DNA of 25,126 nucleotides from a virus. Its lineage: Duplodnaviria > Heunggongvirae > Uroviricota > Caudoviricetes. A program made the translations under genes and the position numbers. Shown here piece after piece: positions 1-24,869 of the stretch (positions within the stretch are counted from its first letter, which is position 1; each line of letters begins with the position of its first letter). The notes below the pieces were generated by a model. That model was given only the letters and a program-made list of their open reading frames with translations, searched no databases and was not told the DNA's origin. The stretch lies in IMG/VR virus record IMGVR_UViG_2740892271_000003; one strand, written 5' to 3'.

Positions 1-35
1 GAACAGGAGGGACAGCTGATAGAAACAGAAGCCAC
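1..35 (-). CDS. insA: IS1 InsA, N-terminal fragment only (truncated by window edge)
   Basis: Minus-strand translation from the GTG at 33..35 gives (M)ASVSISCPSCS, matching the start of IS1 InsA as I remember it. Confidence 0.6.
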   Translation of the reverse strand, partial: MASVSISCPSC

Positions 36-90
36 TGGAGCACCTCAAAAACACCATCATACACTAAATCAGTAAGTTGGCAGCATCACC
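1..90 (-). mobile_element. IS1 terminal segment (terminal inverted repeat plus start of insA); the element continues beyond the window start
   Basis: The reverse complement of 1..90 reads GGTGATGCTGCCAACTTACTGATTTAGTGTATGATGGTG...GTGGCTTCTGTTTCTATCAGCTGTCCCTCCTGTTC, which I recognise as the IS1 end followed by the InsA N-terminus. The outer end of the element is at position 90. Confidence 0.8.
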
Positions 91-472
91 AGCCTTCTTG
101 AGGCTACCACCTGTTTTCAGGTGTCATTCAGACGTGATTTGCCCCAGATTGGGAAAGCACGCTTTTTTCTCAGCTATCGTCCTCTTATTTTGCCGTTACA
201 TTTCTTTTTGCATTCTAATGATTAATTTACAATAATAATATCGGTAATTATTGAGTAATAATAAATTAATTATTGCAAATGTAATTTAATTCCATCTTCG
301 CGTTATATTCCAATCTTTAATCTCCGCATGGAACAAGTTGCATGCGTGACTATATTAAGACGACTTATAACCACCAAAACATTTGCTTTGCAAGCAAAAA
401 CAGTGACCATTGACTCTAAGAAAATTCCGATCTATTGTTAGGGTCATCAAAGTTACTTAACAGTATTCCGAA

Positions 473-574
473 ATGAAAATACAAAGCAAGCTAATTGTCT
501 TATTAAACATTATTATTGCATTTATATTATTTGAGCTTTTAGCTCAAAAATTTGGTTTGAGTACATTATTTTAA
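473..574 (+). CDS. Possible 33-aa hydrophobic small protein (MKIQSKLIVLLNIIIAFILFELLAQKFGLSTLF); speculative
   Basis: ATG at 473 and TAA at 572..574. A single predicted transmembrane-like helix with a charged N-terminus. No clear Shine-Dalgarno sequence; could be chance in AT-rich DNA. Confidence 0.15.
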   Translation: MKIQSKLIVLLNIIIAFILFELLAQKFGLSTLF

Positions 575-723
575 AGCAAGATAAACAATATCGGGCACTC
601 TAGTTTTTATAATTAACAATTAAACGTCCATAAAATGTTATTTACTTTTCTTCGCTATTGTCATATCTTAATATAGTGGCTTACGCCACTCTACTTTCAT
701 CACATTTTGTACGTTTATGTACT

Positions 724-753
724 CGCCATGAAGCTCTTTCATGGCGATTTTTT
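724..753 (+). terminator. Candidate rho-independent terminator on the plus strand
   Basis: A 9-bp perfect stem (cgccatgaa 724..732 pairing with ttcatggcg 738..746) with a 5-nt loop, followed by a T-run at 748..753. The minus-strand side has no U-tract, so it is unidirectional. Confidence 0.45.
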
Positions 754-839
754 ATTCTTAATCCAAGAACATACTCCCTACCTATAGCAAAATCACTTTT
801 TTAACAAAAGAATAACGTATTTAGGTAATCATTACGAAT

Positions 840-1387
840 TTACCCTATAGGTGCTACTGGCCATTCAATATCCGGTGCAGTTGATGTATCAACACGGTTC
901 AGCAACACCCGATACTTTTTCCAAGCTTCCAGCAACAAGGTTTCTTTCTCCGTTGCGATCTCCAGATCCACAGCATCCTGAAGCGGCGCTATATGCTCAC
1001 TGGCTACCTGCATCAGGCTGTTTTTTGTTTCTTCCGCCTCCCGGATCCGGAACAGTTTTTCTGCTTCCGTATCCTTCACCCAGGCTGTGCCGTTCCACTT
1101 CTGAAACTCCCCTTCCGGGGATAACCAGGTGACATTTTCCGGTAATGAGCCGAGTTCAGAAATAAATAACGCGTCGCCGGAAGCCACGTCATAAACCGTT
1201 TTACCCCGATGATCTTCAACGAGATGCCACGATGACTCATCACTGTTGAAAACAGCCACGAAACCAGCCGGAATATCTGGCGGTGCAATATCGGTACTGT
1301 TTGCAGGCAGACCTGTATGAGGCGGAATATATGCGTCACCTTCACCAATAAATTCATTAGTTCCGGCCAGCAGGTTATAAATTTTTA
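840..1387 (-). CDS. tfa: Tail fibre assembly protein Tfa, 5' end lost in the assembly gap
   Basis: Translation after the X-run ([67 protein letters not shown]...) matches lambda Tfa from about residue 13 onward. Stop codon at 840..842. Confidence 0.9.
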
Positions 1388-1517
1388 NNNNNNNNNNNNN
1401 NNNNNNNNNNNNNNNNNNNNNNNNNNNNNNNNNNNNNNNNNNNNNNNNNNNNNNNNNNNNNNNNNNNNNNNNNNNNNNNNNNNNNNNNNNNNNNNNNNNN
1501 NNNNNNNNNNNNNNNNN
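1388..1517. other. Assembly gap (130 N) covering the stf 3' end and the tfa 5' end
   Basis: A run of n characters in the sequence; it appears as X residues in the ORF track. Confidence 0.99.
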
Positions 1518-4376
1518 GCCACTGGTTAATGAGCCACTGATACCAACCTGATTAGTCCCGCTAACTTGAGTACTCCCTGCCGGAAACATTCCAGTAGGTT
1601 GACTCCCGCTATTCGTTCTGGGCCCAGTCTGACTATGTTGGTGGGCCCCAGCTGAACTTGTAGAGCCGCTCAGACTGTGCGTATGCGCCCCGGTGTTATT
1701 CGTGGATTTAGTGCCGTAATCAAACGACGATGTGGTTTTCGTCCCCAAATCCGTACTGGATGCGCTGGCGCTGTGGGTGTGCGATTTAATGCCATCCTGT
1801 TCCTGAGACAATACGGCACGACCACTGGCGGGCTTGCCCTTAATCGTCCAGCCACGCATATCAGGGATCACGCCTGACGGATAAGCGGCTGCAAGTTTCG
1901 GGTAAGCAGATTTGTCAAAAGTCTGCCCCTGCATCAGGGCATAACCAGACGGAACGGTATCTGATGGCCACGGGATTGGTGCACCGACTGGATAAAACTC
2001 TGCAGGAGGATGAGCCGAGGTGTAAAGCTGCGCCCACGGCGACCAGTTTGCGTCGGTCGTATCCCGTCGTGAACGAATAAATGCCGGAGCATGAGCACCG
2101 CTTGTACCACTCCAGCCGATGAGTAACTCACCTTCGCCAACGGCTGTCATCCCTTTCAGGTGAATGATATTTCCATACGCTGTTGGATATCCGTTGTTAT
2201 ACACCTCGTATAACTCAAGACCTGCTGCCCCCTGCGTATTGTCTGTCAGCGCGGCTACCCGACCTTTTGAAGCCAGATTAACTGATGATACTGCTGTTCC
2301 ACCTGACGGTAGCGCCCCGATCTCTGATGCCGTTGGCTTATTTCTGGAGTTATAGTCCCTTCGCCAGCCAGGTGAATAATCTGTTCCGTGATTAATATAG
2401 GTAAACTGGGCGTTGGTTGTTCCGCCACCGCTGGATGTGGTCGGAGTGGTAATGCGGATCGTCATCGCTGACTTTATCCCCATTACTTCAATGACAGCTC
2501 CGGCGAGATGAATATTACCGCAGCCAGTATCAGTAATGATTTTATTATTGCCATAAGACCAGGAACCCTTGCACATCCAGTATGGATGGTTAAATGCTCC
2601 CTGAGAATCCAGCCACTCGATAAACTGTGCAGTCGTCCAGTTTCCTGTTGTTGTGCTTACTGACCCACCGAAGGCACGGCAGGCACCAATATTTTTCGTA
2701 AAGGTGTCTTTGCCAGGGATATCCGCACCGTTCTGATCTTTCTGCAGACGTTTCTCAGCATTGTCATTGGCTGCTTTTACTGCCTTTGGCGTTGCCGCCA
2801 GCGTTTCAGACGTGCTGTTGGTCGCGCTGCTTAGCTGGATTATCCCTTTCTGTGCTGTCGTTGCATCCTGTGCGGTGTATTTCCCGTTAGCCAGGTCATA
2901 CGCGGCCTTAACGGCTTTTGGTGTTGCCGCCAGTGACTCGGAAGTGCTGTTAGTCGCACTACTGAGCTGTACTATCCCCTTTTTCGTCGTGCTCGCATCC
3001 TCAAGCGCCACGGCGGATGCAATATCCTCTGCCCGTTTTGCCGCTGTCTCAGCGCGCGTTGCTGCAGATTCCGCCGTACTTTTGCTCTGAGCTGCTGCCG
3101 TCGCACTACCAGCAGCCTCTGTCGCCTTCGTGGATGCCGTCGTGGCGCTGCCCTTCGCTGCTGACGCCTGTCTGGTCGCCTCATCTTTTGAAGCAGACGC
3201 CGATGATGCCGATGACGCCGCCGAACTGGCGGACGATGCGGCAGCCGTTTTTGAGGATTCTGCACGGGTTTCCGACGCTTTCGCGTTCGTTTCGGATGTC
3301 TTCGCTGCGGAAGCTGACCTCGCTGCTGCCGTGGCCTGCTCAGTGGCTTCGCCAGCCTTCGTTGTGGCTGTTGAAGCGGATGATGCGGCGCTTTCTGCCG
3401 ATTTTCCGGCGGCGGTGGCACTGGCTGAGGCCTGCCCGGCACTTGTTGACGCGGCGCTGGCAGACGACGCAGCCGCTGTTTTTGAGCCTGCCGCAGCTGA
3501 GGCACTCTGTCCCGCTGCCGTTTCAGAAGACCTGGCGTTCGTCTCGGACGTTTTGGCCGCCTTCGCAGAATTTGCAGCCGCCGTCGCCGAGGAAGCTGCG
3601 CTACTGGCGCTTGATGATGCGTTCGTTTCTGATGATTTTGCCGCCTCTTTTGAAGCCGACGCATCCCGGGCTGAGGTGGCAGCTTCTGACGCTTTCGTGG
3701 TCGCGGTGGATGCAGAAGTGGCTGCTGATTGTTGTGACGCTGCCGCATTCGTTTCTAACGTTTTCGCCGCACCGGCACTGGTAGCCGCCGCGCTTTTTGA
3801 GGACTCTGCAGCGGCAGCACTTTTTGAGGCTTCAGTGGCCTTTGTTGATGCCGTTCCTGCGCTGGAAGACGCTGACTGAGCCGACGAAGCGGCCTGTCCG
3901 GCTGACGTGCTGGCTGCACGTGCTGAATCTGCAGCATCAGTCGCATGGGTTGCCGCCTCACGGGCTGATGTGCTGGCATCGCTGGCTGATTTCTTCGCGG
4001 CTGCCGTGTTCTGTGCCACCGCGGACGCGTTACGCGCCACCTCTTCCACCATCAGCTCAAAACGGCGCAGTGCCTCCGGACGGGCATCATCCTCCGTCAT
4101 GGCACCGAGAAAATCATTCAGCGTACCGGGTCGGGAATCTTCATACACGGTGATGGTCCCGGCATGTGACGGCGGGAATCCTTCCACCAACAGAATAACG
4201 CTGTACTGACCGTACTCAACGTCCATGCTGTAACGCCCGGCTTCATCCGGATTTTCTGAGGCCAGCGTGTTCACCACCACCGTGGTGCTGTTACGTTTTG
4301 CTTTCAGCTGGATTGTGCAGTTCTGTACCGGTTTTCCTGTGCCGTCTTTCAGTACACCTGAAATCTTTACTGCCAT
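1518..4376 (-). CDS. stf: Side tail fibre protein Stf, long form; C-terminus lost in the gap
   Basis: The N-terminus [26 protein letters not shown]... matches lambda Stf. An Ala/Ser-rich low-complexity shaft, the [24 protein letters not shown] motif (two copies) and a His-rich HTHS/HQHS tip region are present. The ATG at 4374..4376 is preferred over the track's GTG at 4382 because it gives the lambda-like start. Confidence 0.9.
2776..2986 (-). repeat. Tandem duplication (two ~80-bp units about 130 bp apart) encoding the conserved tail-fibre motif KGI(V/I)[11 protein letters not shown](S/T)[11 protein letters not shown]
   Basis: Near-identical nucleotide stretches around 2776..2855 and 2907..2986 (ttttggcgttgccgccag...gctgtt.gtcgc.ct.ct.agctg.a.tatcccctt), and the protein motif is repeated in the Stf translation. 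Confidence 0.5.
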
Positions 4377-4383
4377 ATTCACC

Positions 4384-4414: not shown

Positions 4415-4440
4415 GTCATAACACTGTGTTACCTGGCTAA

Positions 4441-4896
4441 TCAGAATTTATAACCGACACCCACGATGAAACCGTCAGTGCGCCAGAGACGTGTTGCTGT
4501 GGCGACCGTCATCACTTCCGGTCAGCACATCGTGCGTTTTCCCCTTATTGTCAGTTACGCGGATATAATCCCCGGAAAAAGTCGACACACGGCTGTAAGC
4601 CACACCCGCCATCGCATACGCGCTGAACCATTCATTCACGCGCACAGGCTGTAACGGGTCAGCTGGCGATTCTTGTCTCCTGCATAGCTGAATGACGTCA
4701 CCAGCCCCAGCGTATCCGTAAACTCATAACGGTATTTCACGTTAATCCCGTTCAGATCATCACTGCCGGGAACGTTGGTCCGGGCATGAAGATACCCCGC
4801 GCTCAGCGTGGACTGATGTTCAGACGCCCATGCAGGCGCACCGGATACGGCCAGGCAAATGGCTGCGGACAAAATGGCTGCACAAACTTTACGCAT
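4441..4896 (-). pseudogene. lom: lom (Ail/Lom-family outer membrane protein) remnant, disrupted by two internal deletions with frameshifts
   Basis: The N-terminal 84 codons (4646..4896, MRKVCAAILSAAICLAVSGAPAWASEHQSTLSAGYLH...NRQLTRYS) hit a stop at 4636. A second frame then encodes PVRVNEWFSAYAMAGVAYSRVSTFSGDYIRVTDNKGKTHDVLTGSDDGRHSNTSLA, and a third frame encodes the family's C-terminal strand WRTDGFIVGVGYKF ending at 4441. The total is about 456 bp, against about 621 bp expected for an intact lambda lom. Confidence 0.7.
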
Positions 4897-4917
4897 AATT
4901 ACCTCTCGCTTTTCTGC

Positions 4918-4944
4918 AATAAAAAAGGCGTCATTCCTGACGCC
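4918..4944 (-). terminator. Candidate rho-independent terminator between the J stop and the lom start
   Basis: On the minus strand, the stem ggcgtca/tgacgcc (4927..4933 and 4938..4944) with a 4-nt loop is followed by a U-tract (plus-strand A-run 4919..4926). Confidence 0.45.
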
Positions 4945-4966
4945 ATTTATTGGGGTTATAAATATT

Positions 4967-7900
4967 TCAACGAATACTGATGCCGGAAGCCGCTTTTTTG
5001 GTCACAATCACCGTACAGTCGGTGATATTGCCTGCCCCCTGATTGCCTTTCTGGAAAATCTTAAACTCCAGAGTGACGCTACCACCACCACTAGGCATAT
5101 CAATAACTGCACTGTAACTACCGGGAATGGCCCCTTTAGTTTCTCTGGATGCGATTAATACGCCGTTTTTGCGAACTTCAAAACCATAACCCGTGTATCG
5201 CGTGCCTCCTGGGTTATTTCCGCTCCCCGGATCGTCATACGCTATACCGTTAAAAATAATGGGCGGAATAATAATCTGGCGGTCAAAGTTATGATCATCG
5301 CTTATGGTGACTGTAACCGTCCCGTTTGGTGTTTCCGTGTTACCCCACGTACCAGCCTGTTTCGGAAATGATTTGGATACAGCTTTAACGAAGTCACCTC
5401 TGACCTGAGTCGCCTCCAGCATGCCCTTAATCGTACAGTTTTCATTTACCGTGACATTGTTGAGCGTCCCGGCGTTCGCATTCACACTGCCACTGATATC
5501 CGCATTTTTAGCGGTCAGCTTTCCGTCCGGAGTCAGGGAAAATGCCGATGGATTTCCACCGCTGGTAATGGTGGGGGCCGTCAGGCGTTTCAGGAACACG
5601 TCGTTCATGAATATCTGATCGCCCTGACCAACAAACATCGGTTTTGTGTTGCCATTCGCAGGATTAACCATCGCAATCCTGTCCGCCGCCAGCAGCACCT
5701 GACTCTGCATGCCGTCAGGGGTGTTCTCAATACCGGCACCAATACCCGCGATATAAAGGCGTCCGTCCTGCATCTGCTGCAGCTTCACAGCCCACATGCT
5801 GTTCAGGTTATTATTTGTATCAACCTGAACCTTCTGTATCTGCTGAATTGCCGCACTCTGGTCTTCCAGTTTCTTATTGACGGTCTGCGTGATTTCATTG
5901 CTGACATCCGTAATGGACGTCCTGATTTCAGCCAGGTCAGGCGCAAGCTGACCGTTATCAATCTGCGTCCACAGCTCCTGAGCCAGATGGGTTTTCCCTA
6001 TCTCGCCTTTGAAAAAATCCAGATAACCGGATGCATCATCACTCGGCTGACCAACAGCCTCCACGAATGCCGATTTGCCAACGGTGTTCACACTGCGGAT
6101 ATAAAAGTAATAATCATGGCCCGGTTTGATATTGATACTGGCGGCTATCCAGTACAGCGCCGTGCCAAGATAGCGTGCTGTGGTTTCAACCTGCCTGATA
6201 TCCGCAATCCGCTTTTCCGAGAACCAGAACTCAAACTGTACCGTCGGATCATAAACCGCAAGATGCGGCGTGGCGGTTATCTGAAAATAGCCCGGCGTCA
6301 GCTCAATCCGCGACAGCGCTGCCGGTGCGGCAATCCGGAACGATACCGACGCCGGATCGCCCTGCTGCCCCCACGCATTTACTGCCCGGACTGTCAGCCT
6401 GTAGTTCCCCAGCGCCAGTTGTGTGAAGCGGTAAGTGGTTTCCGTCGTCCGGGCCGTGCTGACCAGCCGCTCACTGCCGTCATCCGCTGTTACGGTCAGA
6501 CGGAGCAGGAAGCTCACGCCCTTCACCACCTTCGGCGTGTCCCAGCGCGCCAGCACCTGATATTCCCCGCTGTCTGCGGTGACTTCGGCAGTCAGGTGCT
6601 GCACCGCTGGCGGCGTGACACCATTCACCGTGCCGCTCTGGTCGCCGTCAAAGTGCGCCCCGTTATCCACGATGGCTTCTTTTTCCGGCACATGCTGCAC
6701 GGCGGTGATGGCATACGTGCCGTCGTCGTTCTCACGGATACTCACGCAGCGGAACAATCGCTGGTGCAGCGTCGGCAGCTTCAGCCCCCACACGCTGTAT
6801 TCAGCAACACCGTCAGGAACACGGCTCACTTTTACCTTCACGCCGTCGGTGACGGACTGGACCTCCACGCTGACCGGATTCCCCTGCCCGTCAACCAGGC
6901 TTATCAGCGTGGTGCCGGAGGATGGCAGCGTGATTTCACGGTCGAGCGTCAGCGTCCGGGTCTGGCTGTTCACCGCCAGCACGCGCCCGCCGGTGCGGAT
7001 ACCGGCATAGTCATCATCGCAGATTTCAATGACATCGCCCGGTACATGACGAAGCCCTTCAGCACCCACGCTGAAATCCACGGTCTGCGTCTCCAGCAGT
7101 TCCGTTTTAATCAGCCACAGCCCGGCGCGGTGTGCCTGCCCCCGGCTGGTACAGCCAAAGGCATCCATCTTCGTGACGTTACGACCGTAACGGACAATGG
7201 CCTGCGTATCCTCCACAAGCTCTGTCGCCGTCTCCCAGCCGTTATCCGGGTCAATCCAGTTCACCTCAACGGCATTATGGCGGTCTTTCAGGGCGCTGAA
7301 ACTGTAGCGGAACGGCGCGCCATCATCCGGCATCACCACATTACTGCGGTTATAGGCCCACACCTTATCCGACTGTCGGTCCTGCACGAACGTCAGCGTC
7401 TGCCCGTTCCATACCGGCATACAGCGCATCGCCGAGCAGAAATCACTGAGCACATCCCACGCCTTGCGCTGTGTGGTCAGCCAGGCATTACAGGTGATGC
7501 GCGGCTCCGTGCTGCCAAAGCCGTCCGGCACCGACTGGTCACAGTACTGGCCGATGACATACAGCGCCCATTTATCCACATCTGCCGCACCAAGACGTTT
7601 CCCCATGCCATAGCGCGGATGGGTCAGCATATCCCACAGACACCAGGCCATGTTGTTGCTGTATGCCGGTTTTAACGTTCCGTCCCAGATACCGCTGTAT
7701 TGCCGCGTCTGCGGATTATAGTTCGACGGCACCTGCAGAATGCGCCCGCGAAGATGATAATTACGGCTCACCTGCTGGCTGCCGAACTGCTCCGAATCCA
7801 CCTGTACGCCGACCAGTGCCGTGTTCGGGTAGCACTGTTTCACATCGATGATTTCGGTGTATGACGACCAGAGCGTTTTGTTCTGCAGCTGGTCTGTGGT

Positions 7901-8464
7901 GCTGTCCGGCGTCATTCTGCGCATCCGGATATTAAACGGGCGCGGCGGCAGGTTATCCACCACCACCGAGGCCAGATACTGCGAGGTGGTTTTGCCCTTA
8001 ATGGTGATGTCTTTTTCCGTCACCCAGCCACCGTTACGCTGTATCTGAACCAGCAGGCGAACTTCAGACGGATTCCTGTCTCCCTTTGAGGTGGTTTCCA
8101 CCAGTGCCTGTACACCGAAGGTAAAACGCAGTCGGTCAATGTTTGCCGACGTGATGGTCCGGGTGATCGGCGTGTCATATTTCACTTCCGTACCCAGCAC
8201 CGTCTCGGAGCCGGAGGATTCAAATCCCTCCGGCGGTGACTGCTCCTGCTCACCTGCCCGGAACACCACCGTGACGCCGGAGATGTTGGTATTCCCCTCA
8301 CTGTCCAGCACCGGCGTACTGTTCAGCAGCACGCTTTTTAATCCATCCACCGGACCTTCAACCGGCCCTTCGCTGATGGCATCGATCACACTCAGCAGCT
8401 GCGTGGACTTCAGGTTGTCCTTCGCTTCGCGCGGGGTATGCCCCTTACTGCTGCCTTTACCCAT
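4967..8464 (-). CDS. J: Central tail fibre / host specificity protein J (tip attachment protein), with a divergent C-terminal region
   Basis: 1165 aa. The N-terminal ~830 aa ([34 protein letters not shown]...) closely match lambda gpJ from memory. The C-terminal third departs from the lambda LamB-binding region. Confidence 0.95.
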
Positions 8465-8524: not shown

Positions 8525-9196
8525 TCAGCGACCAATCACCACAACCTGACCACCGTCCCCTTCGTCTGCCGTGCTGATCTCCTGAGATACCACACGTGAC
8601 CCCACGCGCATTTCACCATACAGAACAGGCATAACATTGCCCTGGGCAACCATGTTATCCAGTGAGGAGAAATAGGTGTTCTGCTTACCGTTATCCGTTG
8701 TCTGTGTGCGGGGAGTTCTGGCTTTCGGTGCCAGCATCTGAGCCACACCGCCGAGCACCATACTGGCACCGAGAGAAAACAGAATGCCGGTCATACCACC
8801 GGCACCAATGGCAGCCCCCCATGCTGCAAGGGTGGCTCCGGCGGTAAAGAATGATCCGGCAATGGCGGCTGCTCCCAGGACAATCTGGAATACACCACCT
8901 GACTTGGCCCCGGCGACTCTGGGAACAATATGAATCACAGCGCCGTCAGGCAGAGCCTCATGTAACTGTGCCGTTAATCCGGACGTGCTAACATCCTGCC
9001 CGGCAATACGCACCTGATACCAGCCGTCGCTCAGCTTCTGACGAAACGCAGGGAGCTGTGTGGCCATCGCCCGGATGGCTTCGGCACCCGTTTTCACACG
9101 AAGGTCGATGCGGCGGCCAAATCGTTGCAAATCCCCGTAAAGGCAGATGCGTGCCATGCCCGGTGACGCCAGAGGGAGTGTGTGCGTCGCTGCCAT
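8525..9196 (-). CDS. I: Tail assembly protein I
   Basis: 223 aa (MAATHTLPLASPGMARICLYGDLQRFGRRIDLRV...), matching lambda gpI. It overlaps the K 3' end by 103 nt, as in lambda. Confidence 0.95.
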   Translation of the reverse strand: MAATHTLPLASPGMARICLYGDLQRFGRRIDLRVKTGAEAIRAMATQLPAFRQKLSDGWYQVRIAGQDVSTSGLTAQLHEALPDGAVIHIVPRVAGAKSGGVFQIVLGAAAIAGSFFTAGATLAAWGAAIGAGGMTGILFSLGASMVLGGVAQMLAPKARTPRTQTTDNGKQNTYFSSLDNMVAQGNVMPVLYGEMRVGSRVVSQEISTADEGDGGQVVVIGR

Positions 9197-9837
9197 TTGT
9201 CGGTATACCTCTCTCGTTTGCTCAGTTGTTCAGGAATATGGTGCAGCAGCTCGCCGTCACCACAGTAAATGGCGGCATGATTCGGCACCGATGAACCAAA
9301 ACAGCACAGCAGCACATCGCCCGGCTGCGCCGCTGACAACGGCACCTGATACAGCCCTGTGGCCTCCAGATTATCCAGATAGAGATTCTGACCGTGACGC
9401 CACCAGTCATCCTCACGATGAAAATCCGGCATCTCAATCCCCGCCAGATGGTAAGCATCCCGGAACAGCGTGTAACAGTCCGTCACCCCGTGCTCAAAGC
9501 GCCGCCCGGTAAGATGTGGCACACAGCGGAACTTGTGAATCGCCCCCCGGCAGACCAGCCACCACGGCAAATCACTCTGCACCTGCAGCCGCCGGTCGGC
9601 CTCACTCAGCCAGGGCAGACCACCGGGGTGGCTGTGGACCAGTGCCACAATCTCACCCTGCATCTCTGCCTGCAGCCAGTCTTCCGGCGACATACGGAAA
9701 TACGCCTCCGGCTCACCGGAGATATTCACGCAGGGGAAATATCTTTCCCCCTCCGGCGTTCTTACCACGAAGCCGCACGACTCCGCTGGAGCACATCGCC
9801 GGGCGTGCGCCAGAATCGCTGATTCTGTCTCTGTCAT
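9094..9837 (-). CDS. K: Tail assembly protein K (MPN/JAMM plus NlpC/P60 domains); long ORF form
   Basis: The JAMM motif HSHPGGLPWLSEAD and an NlpC/P60-like Cys/His set are present. The ATG at 9837 lies 6 nt after the L stop. The classical 199-aa lambda annotation would correspond to a start near 9693. Confidence 0.9.
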   Translation of the reverse strand: MTETESAILAHARRCAPAESCGFVVRTPEGERYFPCVNISGEPEAYFRMSPEDWLQAEMQGEIVALVHSHPGGLPWLSEADRRLQVQSDLPWWLVCRGAIHKFRCVPHLTGRRFEHGVTDCYTLFRDAYHLAGIEMPDFHREDDWWRHGQNLYLDNLEATGLYQVPLSAAQPGDVLLCCFGSSVPNHAAIYCGDGELLHHIPEQLSKRERYTDKWQRRTHSLWRHRAWHASAFTGICNDLAAASTFV

Positions 9838-24167: not shown

Positions 24168-24401
24168 ATGTCAACGAAGAACAGAACCCGCAGAACAACA
24201 ACCCGCAACATCCGCTTTCCTAACCAAATGATTGAACAAATTAACATCGCTCTTGTTCAAAAAGGGTCCGGGAATTTCTCAGCCTGGGTCATTGAAGCCT
24301 GCCGCCGGAGACTGTGCTCAGAAAAAAGAGTTTCGCCTGAAGCAAACAAAGAAAAGAGTGACATTACTGAATTGCTCAGAAAACAGGTTAGACCAGATTG
24401 A
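24168..24401 (+). CDS. Small ribbon-helix-helix-like DNA-binding protein (77 aa), hypothetical
   Basis: MSTKNRTRRTTTRNIRFPNQMIEQINIALVQKGSGNFSAWVIEACRRRL... has a basic N-terminal arm, then a beta-strand-like RNIRFP, helix, G-x-(S/N) turn and second helix, as in Arc/MetJ/CopG-type folds. AT-rich codon usage; the Shine-Dalgarno sequence is weak. Confidence 0.45.
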   Translation: MSTKNRTRRTTTRNIRFPNQMIEQINIALVQKGSGNFSAWVIEACRRRLCSEKRVSPEANKEKSDITELLRKQVRPD

Positions 24402-24458
24402 AGCAATTTAGATAATCGTGCAGACTACGCCCCCTCATATCACATGGAAGGTACTACA

Positions 24459-24869
24459 ATGGCTCAGGTTGCCATTTTTAAACAAATATTCGATAAAGTG
24501 CGAAATAATTTAAACTATCACTGGTTTTATTCTGAACTAAAACGTCACAATGTCTCACATTACATTTACTATTTAGCCACAGAGAATATTCATCTTGTTC
24601 TTGAAAACGATAATACGGTTTTAATAAAAGGACAGGGTAAGGTTGTAAATGTAAGATTTTCAAAAAATAAATGCCTTATAGAAGCCACCTTAAAAGGATT
24701 CAAATCAGGAGAGTTATCATTTTACGAATACAGGAAAAATCTTGCTACAGCAGGGGTTTTCAGATGGATTACAAATATCCACGAAAACAAAAGGTATTAC
24801 TATACCTTTGATAATTCATTACTCTTTACTGAGAACATACAGAACACTACACAAATATTTCCGCACTAA
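24459..24869 (+). CDS. Hypothetical 136-aa protein (possibly YbcV/DUF1398-like lambdoid accessory protein); the track's alternative start at 24444 gives 141 aa
   Basis: Frame verified across rows 24444..24869. A GGAAGG Shine-Dalgarno sequence lies 7 nt upstream of the ATG at 24459. AT-rich, on the strand opposite the packaging genes. The family assignment is from memory only. Confidence 0.6.

What the first reader, a model, noticed from the sequence alone, without database searches (positions are those of the whole stretch)
4967..5980. Mosaic J: lambda-like body with a divergent C-terminal receptor-binding region
J tracks lambda gpJ closely for roughly the first 830 residues. It then departs, partially from about ...[12 protein letters not shown] and completely over the last ~150 aa, which end ...[21 protein letters not shown]. 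The lambda C-terminus is the LamB-binding determinant, so this phage is predicted to use a different outer-membrane receptor.
Basis: partly seen in the sequence, partly recalled or inferred. Interest (0 to 1): 0.45.

Follow-up and report, generated by a model that had tools for sequence, protein, structure and literature searches.

The report
Lambda-type J with phage-434 receptor domain
The tail-tip gene J of this lambda-like E. coli prophage is a common, already described modular recombinant whose receptor-binding end is the phage 434 type, so the phage most likely docks on the porin OmpC rather than LamB; this is ordinary.

Summary
J (window 4967..8464, minus strand, 1165 aa) is 97% identical to lambda gpJ over aa 1-805 and then diverges.

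- The divergence has two separate blocks, split by a conserved island (aa ~950-1010).
- Block 1 (aa 806-~949) is an alternative allele of the alpha-helical shaft and upper fibre. It carries a 28-aa helical insertion and is absent from both lambda and 434.
- Block 2 (aa ~1011-1165) is still homologous to lambda's receptor-binding domain (RBD), at 37% identity. It is 95% identical to the phage 434 J RBD, whose receptor is OmpC according to the literature.

The whole allele is 96% identical in DNA to J of viable phages (ev099, phi458, cdtI, Ayreon, mEp332, PhiR34_1). Its C-terminal 1 kb occurs in 1164 of 5426 complete E. coli genomes. Module swapping of the J specificity region is published (Maddamsetti 2018).

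Verdict: the 'different receptor' interpretation is supported, and the receptor can be named as OmpC. That assignment is inferred, not tested here. Already known; low interest.

The only slightly open point is what the long-shaft allele does. It reassorts independently of the RBD.

The parts
4967..8464 (-). Intact J gene (tip attachment / central tail fibre protein), 1165 aa plus stop
   Evidence: ORF, translation. Six Pfam gpJ domains lie in lambda order: FNIII-A_GpJ, Phage-tail_3, Ig_J, Ig_J_second, Phage_Tail_Tip, Ig_GpJ_C. DNA is 96% identical over 100% of its length to J of phages ev099, phi458, Kati, PhiR34_1, cdtI and Ayreon.
6050..8464 (-). Module 1, aa 1-805: hub domains plus two FNIII/Ig domains, lambda/434 type
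   Evidence: 97% aa identity to lambda and 98% to 434; only 75-76% to Stx2-1717 and PPompW J. The 30-aa bins are 90-100% identical. phmmer matches the lambda J chain 8iyk over aa 1-836.
5585..6049 (-). Module 2, aa 806-960 (true divergence aa 806-~949): alternative 'long' alpha-helical shaft (AHS) plus upper central straight fibre, with a 28-aa insertion relative to lambda and 434
   Evidence: 45-46% identity to lambda and 434 with 28 gap positions. 94-100% identity to phi458, cdtI, ev099, 1H12, Stx2-1717, PPompW and PhiR55_1. The AF2 single-sequence model of aa 800-905 has helices at 812-836 and 842-899, with block-mean pLDDT above 90 for roughly aa 850-899. The lambda AHS is residues 809-861 (PMC11101478). 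This DNA segment is found at 80% coverage or more in 65 phage records.
5435..5584 (-). Conserved island, aa 961-1010: lower central straight fibre ([12 protein letters not shown]...[10 protein letters not shown]), likely the crossover zone between the shaft and RBD modules
   Evidence: 90% identity to lambda, 86% to 434, and 74-98% to all other J proteins compared. This matches the start of the published 'specificity region', lambda residues 960-1132 (PMC6646904).
4970..5434 (-). Module 3, aa 1011-1165: Ig-like receptor-binding domain of the phage 434 type (predicted OmpC binder)
   Evidence: 95% identity to the 434 J RBD, with 7 substitutions: S1032A, Q1036K, A1037V, N1047D, I1136V, Q1138H, G1143R. 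97-98% to phi458, cdtI and ev099; 37-41% to the lambda, 1H12, 1717 and PPompW RBDs. Pfam Ig_GpJ_C over aa 1029-1164, E=3e-25. phmmer to the lambda RBD chain 8xcj gives E=6e-20.
4927..4944 (-). Terminator-like hairpin just downstream of J
   Evidence: Consensus scan only. The 434 record annotates a terminator at the equivalent place after J.

Best explanation
This is the central tail fibre / tip attachment protein J of a lambda-like Escherichia prophage, assembled by homologous recombination from three interchangeable modules.

- Module 1, aa 1-805: a lambda/434-type hub with two FNIII domains.
- Module 2, aa 806-~949: a 'long-shaft' allele of the alpha-helical shaft and upper fibre. Its helical part is 28 residues longer than in lambda or 434.
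- Module 3, aa ~1011-1165: a phage-434-type Ig-like receptor-binding domain. It follows a conserved lower-fibre segment (aa ~950-1010) that probably serves as the crossover site.

By analogy with lambda, the J trimer closes the tail tip. Its C-terminal domain docks on a trimeric outer-membrane porin, and binding is relayed through the beta-prism fibre and the helical shaft to open the tip.

Because the receptor domain is the 434 type, the porin is most likely OmpC, not LamB.

Shown here: the module boundaries, the identities, the intact ORF and the wide occurrence of the allele. Inferred: OmpC binding and the lambda-like trigger mechanism.
For: Module structure:
- Identity changes abruptly between modules at both protein and DNA level. 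Against lambda, nt identity runs 91-99% over aa 1-810 and then 52-68% over aa 811-930. Against 434, it is 87-99% nt over aa 1021-1165.
- The same long-shaft module (94-100% identical) sits next to three unrelated RBD types: the 434 type, the 1H12/1717 type and the PPompW/PhiR55_1 type. It also sits next to two hub types. Modules therefore reassort independently.

Receptor assignment:
- The RBD is 95% identical to 434 J.
- Lambda carrying 434 J binds OmpC, the 434 receptor (PMC3509688; PMC11101478).
- Two other natural non-lambda RBD types grafted onto lambda J also use OmpC: A8 and 1A2. The 1A2 C-terminus equals the PPompW type. The A8 RBD resembles the 1H12/1717-type RBD by my reading of the PDB 9wca alignment; no identity figure was computed (PMC11338833).

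Functionality of this J type:
- Near-identical full-length J (96% nt) occurs in phages that were propagated or induced: phi458, Ayreon on K-12, cdtI, and PhiR34_1 and mEp332 on MG1655 (PMC5764929; PMC9701743).
- Gene context is lambda-like: gpI and gpK lie upstream, and lom, stf and tfa lie downstream.

Recombination as the origin:
- Published phylogenetics conclude that the J specificity region (lambda residues 960-1132) circulates as an independent module (PMC6646904).
Against: - No adsorption or genetic data exist for this exact protein.
- Seven RBD substitutions relative to 434 include Q1138H and G1143R. These lie in a segment that aligns, by my own reading, near lambda residue ~1107, a position critical for receptor switching in lambda (PMC6646904). 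OmpC-allele specificity, or even porin choice, could therefore differ.
- I found no published receptor assignment for any phage carrying the long-shaft plus 434-RBD combination.
- The single-sequence AF2 model of the RBD was poor (pLDDT 48). The fold is therefore inferred from sequence homology only.
- The neighbouring lom gene is degraded, so the prophage may be partly decayed.
Confidence: 0.85

Rival explanations
1. The 434-like RBD in this allele recognises a porin other than OmpC (for example OmpF, LamB or another trimeric porin), because its few loop substitutions have shifted specificity.
For: Lambda J switches from LamB to OmpF with as few as 4 point mutations in this region (4-10 substitutions per evolved isolate; PMC6646904). 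The window differs from 434 at 7 RBD positions. Position 1143 is G, R or W among close relatives, which suggests a variable contact loop.
Against: 95% identity to an RBD with a known receptor. The variable positions are shared with phages that grow on K-12 (cdtI, Ayreon type). OmpC is also the receptor of two other natural J RBD types (PMC11338833), so OmpC is the prior for non-lambda J in E. coli.
Confidence: 0.1
2. The C-terminal difference from lambda arose by gradual in-place divergence under diversifying selection, not by module exchange.
For: The J specificity region shows elevated substitution and indel rates in nature (PMC6646904).
Against: DNA identity changes stepwise within one gene, from about 97% to 52-68% and back to 93% against lambda. 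The 'divergent' blocks are 94-100% identical to blocks in other phages that carry different partners on either side. That pattern is the signature of recombination.
Confidence: 0.03
3. J is a relic in a defective prophage and no longer functions in adsorption.
For: The adjacent lom gene carries two internal deletions and is truncated to 86 aa. Only the late region is visible in the window.
Against: The 1165-aa ORF is intact. It has the same length as J in viable phages and 97-100% aa identity per module. All lambda-like head and tail ORFs from nu1 to J have lambda-like sizes. lom is dispensable for phage growth (my background knowledge).
Confidence: 0.07

Closest known systems
Phage 434 central tail fibre J (UMO75286.1; also carried by lambda h434 hybrids)
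   Same: Hub and FNIII domains are 98% identical, the lower fibre 86% and the RBD 95%. The same receptor, OmpC, is expected.
   Different: 434 has the short lambda-type alpha-helical shaft. The window has the long allele: 46% identity over aa 806-960 and a 28-aa insertion.
J of phages phi458, cdtI, ev099, Ayreon, mEp332, PhiR34_1, Kati ('host specificity protein J', 1165 aa)
   Same: Same length and the same three-module architecture. DNA identity is 95.5-96.4% over the whole gene. For the three aligned here (phi458, cdtI, ev099), aa identity is 97-100% in the shaft and RBD modules. This is the same allele class.
   Different: For those three aligned phages, only scattered substitutions, for example D1077S, G1127R and I1136V. 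No receptor has been published for these phages as far as I could find.
Lambda gpJ (NP_040600; PDB 8iyk, 8xck, 8xcj)
   Same: Same domain order, a 97% identical hub, a conserved lower fibre and a homologous Ig-like RBD fold family.
   Different: The lambda RBD is 37% identical and binds LamB. Its shaft is 28 aa shorter.
Engineered lambda gpJ chimeras A8 and 1A2 (Brodel et al. 2024, PMC11338833; PDB 9wca)
   Same: They use the same principle: a lambda-type J body with a natural non-lambda C-terminal RBD retargets the phage to OmpC.
   Different: Their RBDs are of the 1H12/1717-like type (A8, judged by eye from the 9wca alignment) and the PPompW type (1A2). Natural RBDs of those two types are about 38-41% identical to the window's RBD.

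Membership tests
Lambda gpJ tip attachment protein family | Collinear gpJ domain set: hub domains, two FNIII/Ig domains, tail-tip fibre and C-terminal Ig RBD | tested here: met
   Pfam FNIII-A_GpJ, Phage-tail_3, Ig_J, Ig_J_second, Phage_Tail_Tip and Ig_GpJ_C are all above their gathering scores and in lambda order. phmmer E=0 to lambda J chains.
Lambda gpJ tip attachment protein family | Position in the tail operon: after K and I, before lom and stf | tested here: met
   Lambda_tail_I (8525..9196) and the JAB+NlpC/P60 gpK (9094..9837) lie upstream. An Ail_Lom remnant, stf and tfa lie downstream.
434-type J receptor-binding domain (OmpC-specific) | High sequence identity to the 434 J C-terminal domain | tested here: met
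   148 of 155 residues identical over aa 1011-1165, with 87-99% nt identity per bin.
434-type J receptor-binding domain (OmpC-specific) | OmpC-dependent adsorption or infection | not testable with these tools
   Known for 434 and lambda h434 from the literature (PMC3509688, PMC11101478). No data exist for this allele.
434-type J receptor-binding domain (OmpC-specific) | Ig-like beta-sandwich fold with bottom loops | tested here: inconclusive
   The single-sequence AF2 model is all-beta but of low confidence (pLDDT 48), so it was not used for a fold search. The fold is inferred from homology to the lambda RBD structure.
'Long-shaft' (long AHS) J allele | A 28-aa helical insertion in the alpha-helical shaft relative to lambda and 434 | tested here: met
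   Alignment gaps. AF2 helices at 812-836 and 842-899, with block-mean pLDDT above 90 for roughly aa 850-899. No solved structure covers the inserted residues (PDB matches skip query aa 31-60).

The most novel reading that the evidence does not exclude
The long alpha-helical-shaft allele (aa 806-~949, 28 extra helical residues, about 4 nm if fully helical) may be a functional module in its own right.

It reassorts independently of the RBD. It replaces exactly the segment that, in lambda, flips and converts from helix to beta-strand to open the tail tip.

It could tune fibre reach through O-antigen or capsule, or tune the trigger threshold. It could also alter recognition by J-sensing defences such as HepS. 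Its role has been noted as unexplained indel variation (PMC6646904) and, as far as I found, has not been studied.
Probability: 0.2. Interest if true: 0.45.

Novelty: already known. Interest (0 to 1): 0.12.

Why it matters
For annotation, it allows this prophage's J to be labelled '434-type RBD, predicted OmpC receptor' rather than 'lambda J-like'. That is useful for predicting host range and superinfection patterns, and for choosing natural RBDs for engineered lambda particles.

It adds nothing conceptually new. Modular exchange of the J specificity region and OmpC use by 434-type J are both established, and this allele is present in about a fifth of complete E. coli genomes.

Tried and rejected
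- Single-sequence AlphaFold2 of the RBD (aa 996-1165) gave pLDDT 48. That is too poor for a fold search, so I relied on sequence homology to the solved lambda J chains instead.
- I looked for published receptor data on phages with this exact J: Ayreon, phi458, cdtI, the PhiR phages and mEp332. I found none. The phi458 and cdtI papers themselves were not opened; they only appeared in search listings. The PhiR phages appear in PMC13190303, but only with ManYZ and tape-measure data.
- phi330 (OmpC, PMC12502783) has an RBD only 35-40% identical to 434 and lambda according to its authors, so it is not this type.
- I checked whether the Eligo 1A2 or A8 chimeras carry this RBD. They do not: 1A2 matches the PPompW type and A8 resembles the 1H12-like type by eye.
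- Antisense ORFs over the region (4859..5158 +, 5987..7675 +) were treated as the spurious ORFs expected opposite a long GC-rich gene. This was an assumption and was not checked.

Full report
**1. What is at the coordinates**

The finding (4967-5980) is the 3' third of a 3498-nt ORF on the minus strand, 4967..8464. It encodes a 1165-aa protein that begins [20 protein letters not shown] and ends [21 protein letters not shown].

Pfam finds the complete gpJ domain set in lambda order, all far above the gathering scores:
- FNIII-A_GpJ, aa 86-207
- Phage-tail_3, aa 330-498
- Ig_J, aa 610-714
- Ig_J_second, aa 718-818
- Phage_Tail_Tip, aa 872-1000
- Ig_GpJ_C, aa 1029-1164

Upstream lie gpI (Lambda_tail_I) and gpK (JAB + NlpC/P60). 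Further upstream are ORFs with the sizes of lambda L, M and H. Downstream lie a lom remnant, stf and tfa. The window as a whole is a lambda-like late region, about 97% identical to prophages in many complete E. coli genomes.

**2. Check of the observation**

BLASTP against lambda gpJ gives 82% identity overall. A codon-aware alignment in 30-aa bins gives these identities to lambda:

| aa range | aa identity | nt identity | note |
|---|---|---|---|
| 1-810 | 90-100% | 91-99% | |
| 811-930 | 13-53% | 52-68% | 28-residue insertion |
| 931-990 | 77-97% | | recovery |
| 991-1020 | 70% | | |
| 1021-1165 | 20-50% | | |

The first mismatches of the divergent block are at aa 806/807, and [12 protein letters not shown] starts at aa 816.

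- There are two separate divergent blocks, with a conserved island between them.
- The last ~150 aa are still homologous to lambda's RBD: 37% identity and phmmer E=6e-20 to the lambda gpJ713 chain 8xcj.

**3. What the blocks are**

Against phage 434 J the picture differs.
- The hub is 98% identical.
- The middle block is as divergent as it is against lambda (46%, with the same 28-aa gap).
- The C-terminal RBD (aa 1011-1165) is 95% identical, differing at seven residues: S1032A, Q1036K, A1037V, N1047D, I1136V, Q1138H and G1143R.

The receptor determinant is therefore the 434 type.

The middle block corresponds to lambda's alpha-helical shaft (AHS, lambda residues 809-861) and the upper part of the beta-prism 'central straight fibre', in the terms of the cryo-EM work of Ge & Wang (PMC11101478). 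A single-sequence AlphaFold2 model of aa 800-905 predicts helices at 812-836 and 842-899, with block-mean pLDDT above 90 for roughly aa 850-899. The extra 28 residues therefore lengthen the lower helix of the shaft. No solved structure covers the inserted residues.

**4. Evidence for module exchange**

I aligned ten J proteins. The long-shaft block is 94-100% identical in phi458, cdtI, ev099, 1H12, Stx2-1717, PPompW_EH2201 and PhiR55_1. These proteins nevertheless carry three mutually divergent RBD types (~38-41% identity to the window's RBD): the 434 type, the 1H12/1717 type and the PPompW/PhiR55_1 type. They also carry two hub types (98% versus 75% identity to the window's hub).

Conversely, 434 combines the short shaft with the 434 RBD. 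In the phage collection, 65 records hold the long-shaft DNA at 80% coverage or more, but only 25 hold long shaft plus 434 RBD together.

The conserved island (aa ~950-1010, [12 protein letters not shown]...[10 protein letters not shown]) coincides with the start of the 'specificity region' (lambda 960-1132). Maddamsetti et al. showed phylogenetically that this region circulates independently of the rest of J. They also noted unexplained nested indels upstream of it (PMC6646904).

Stepwise changes in DNA identity inside one gene, together with shared blocks in different contexts, argue for recombination rather than in-place divergence.

**5. Receptor inference**

Replacing lambda J with the 434 gene makes lambda bind OmpC, the receptor used by 434 (PMC3509688; PMC11101478 introduction).

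Two other natural non-lambda J C-termini grafted onto lambda also use OmpC, with OmpC-allele specificity (PMC11338833).
- 'A8': its PDB chain 9wca aligns to the window RBD better than lambda does, and by eye it resembles the 1H12 type.
- '1A2': its C-terminal DNA in that paper's supplement translates to the PPompW-type RBD.

OmpC is therefore both the specific expectation from 95% identity to 434 and the general prior for non-lambda J in E. coli.

This remains an inference. I found no receptor data for any phage with this exact allele. Two of the seven differences from 434 (Q1138H, G1143R; W in ev099) lie in a segment that aligns, by my reading, near lambda's residue ~1107. That position is critical for receptor switching (PMC6646904), so OmpC-allele range could differ.

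**6. Is the protein functional?**

The ORF is intact and has the same length as J of phages that were isolated or induced as infectious particles: Ayreon on K-12 (PMC5764929), the spontaneously induced phi458 (PMC9701743), cdtI, and PhiR34_1 and mEp332 with host MG1655 in their records. DNA identity to these is 95.5-96.4% over the full gene.

The neighbouring lom is degraded, but lom is not needed for phage growth (background knowledge).

**7. Mechanism**

This is inferred by homology to lambda (PMC11101478). A J trimer seals the tail tip. The three Ig-like RBDs insert their bottom loops into the extracellular face of a trimeric porin. Spreading of the RBD bases is relayed as a twist up the beta-prism. 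The helical shaft then flips and partly converts to beta-strand, the FNIII strings dissociate and the hub opens.

The window's J should work the same way on OmpC. The longer shaft changes the one element that undergoes the largest rearrangement. What that does is unknown.

**8. Novelty and score**

The allele is present at 80% coverage or more (mostly 90-99% identity) in 1164 of 5426 complete E. coli genomes and in at least 25 deposited phage genomes. The mosaic principle is published, and the receptor of the donor-type RBD has been known for decades.

This is an ordinary, correctly spotted feature: already known, low interest.

The only mildly open question is the function of the independently reassorting long-shaft module.

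Noticed in passing
window 4440-4896 (-), ORF 4636..4896: lom is a pseudogene. Relative to lom of 434, cdtI, ev099 and phi458 it has a 61-nt deletion at 4647/4648 and a second deletion of about 72-77 nt at ~4481-4486. This leaves an 86-aa product that covers only positions 1-83 of the 199-position Ail_Lom profile.
   Followed up: partly
window 840-4382 (-), N-run 1388-1517: The 1180-aa 'ORF' is an artificial fusion of the side tail fibre gene stf and the chaperone tfa across a 130-base masked run of N. The part after the Ns is 94% identical in DNA to the lambda tfa (orf-194) region. The stf body has a long Ala/Ser-rich repeat region.
   Followed up: partly
window 5582-5677 (-), J aa 930-961: The peptide equivalent to lambda J 902-933, which triggers the prophage abortive-infection nuclease HepS, is 25/32 identical here. 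It keeps the critical Phe (lambda F924 = F952 here). This phage would therefore probably still trigger HepS (PMC13043305).
   Followed up: no
L006-L009 and window 5585-6049: The long-shaft J module is shared at 94-100% aa identity by phages with three different RBD types and two hub types, including Stx2-converting phages. It behaves as an independent recombination unit of unknown function.
   Followed up: partly
window 24168-24869 (+): A low-GC (about 39%) segment next to the nu1/cos end carries two small plus-strand genes with DUF3950 and DUF1398 domains. These are probably prophage accessory ('moron') genes.
   Followed up: no
window 1-840: A low-GC (36%) stretch downstream of tfa has no ORF of 60 aa or more. 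About 80 bases at window 10-90 match, at 100% identity, a region of phi458 just upstream of an IS1 insA gene.
   Followed up: no
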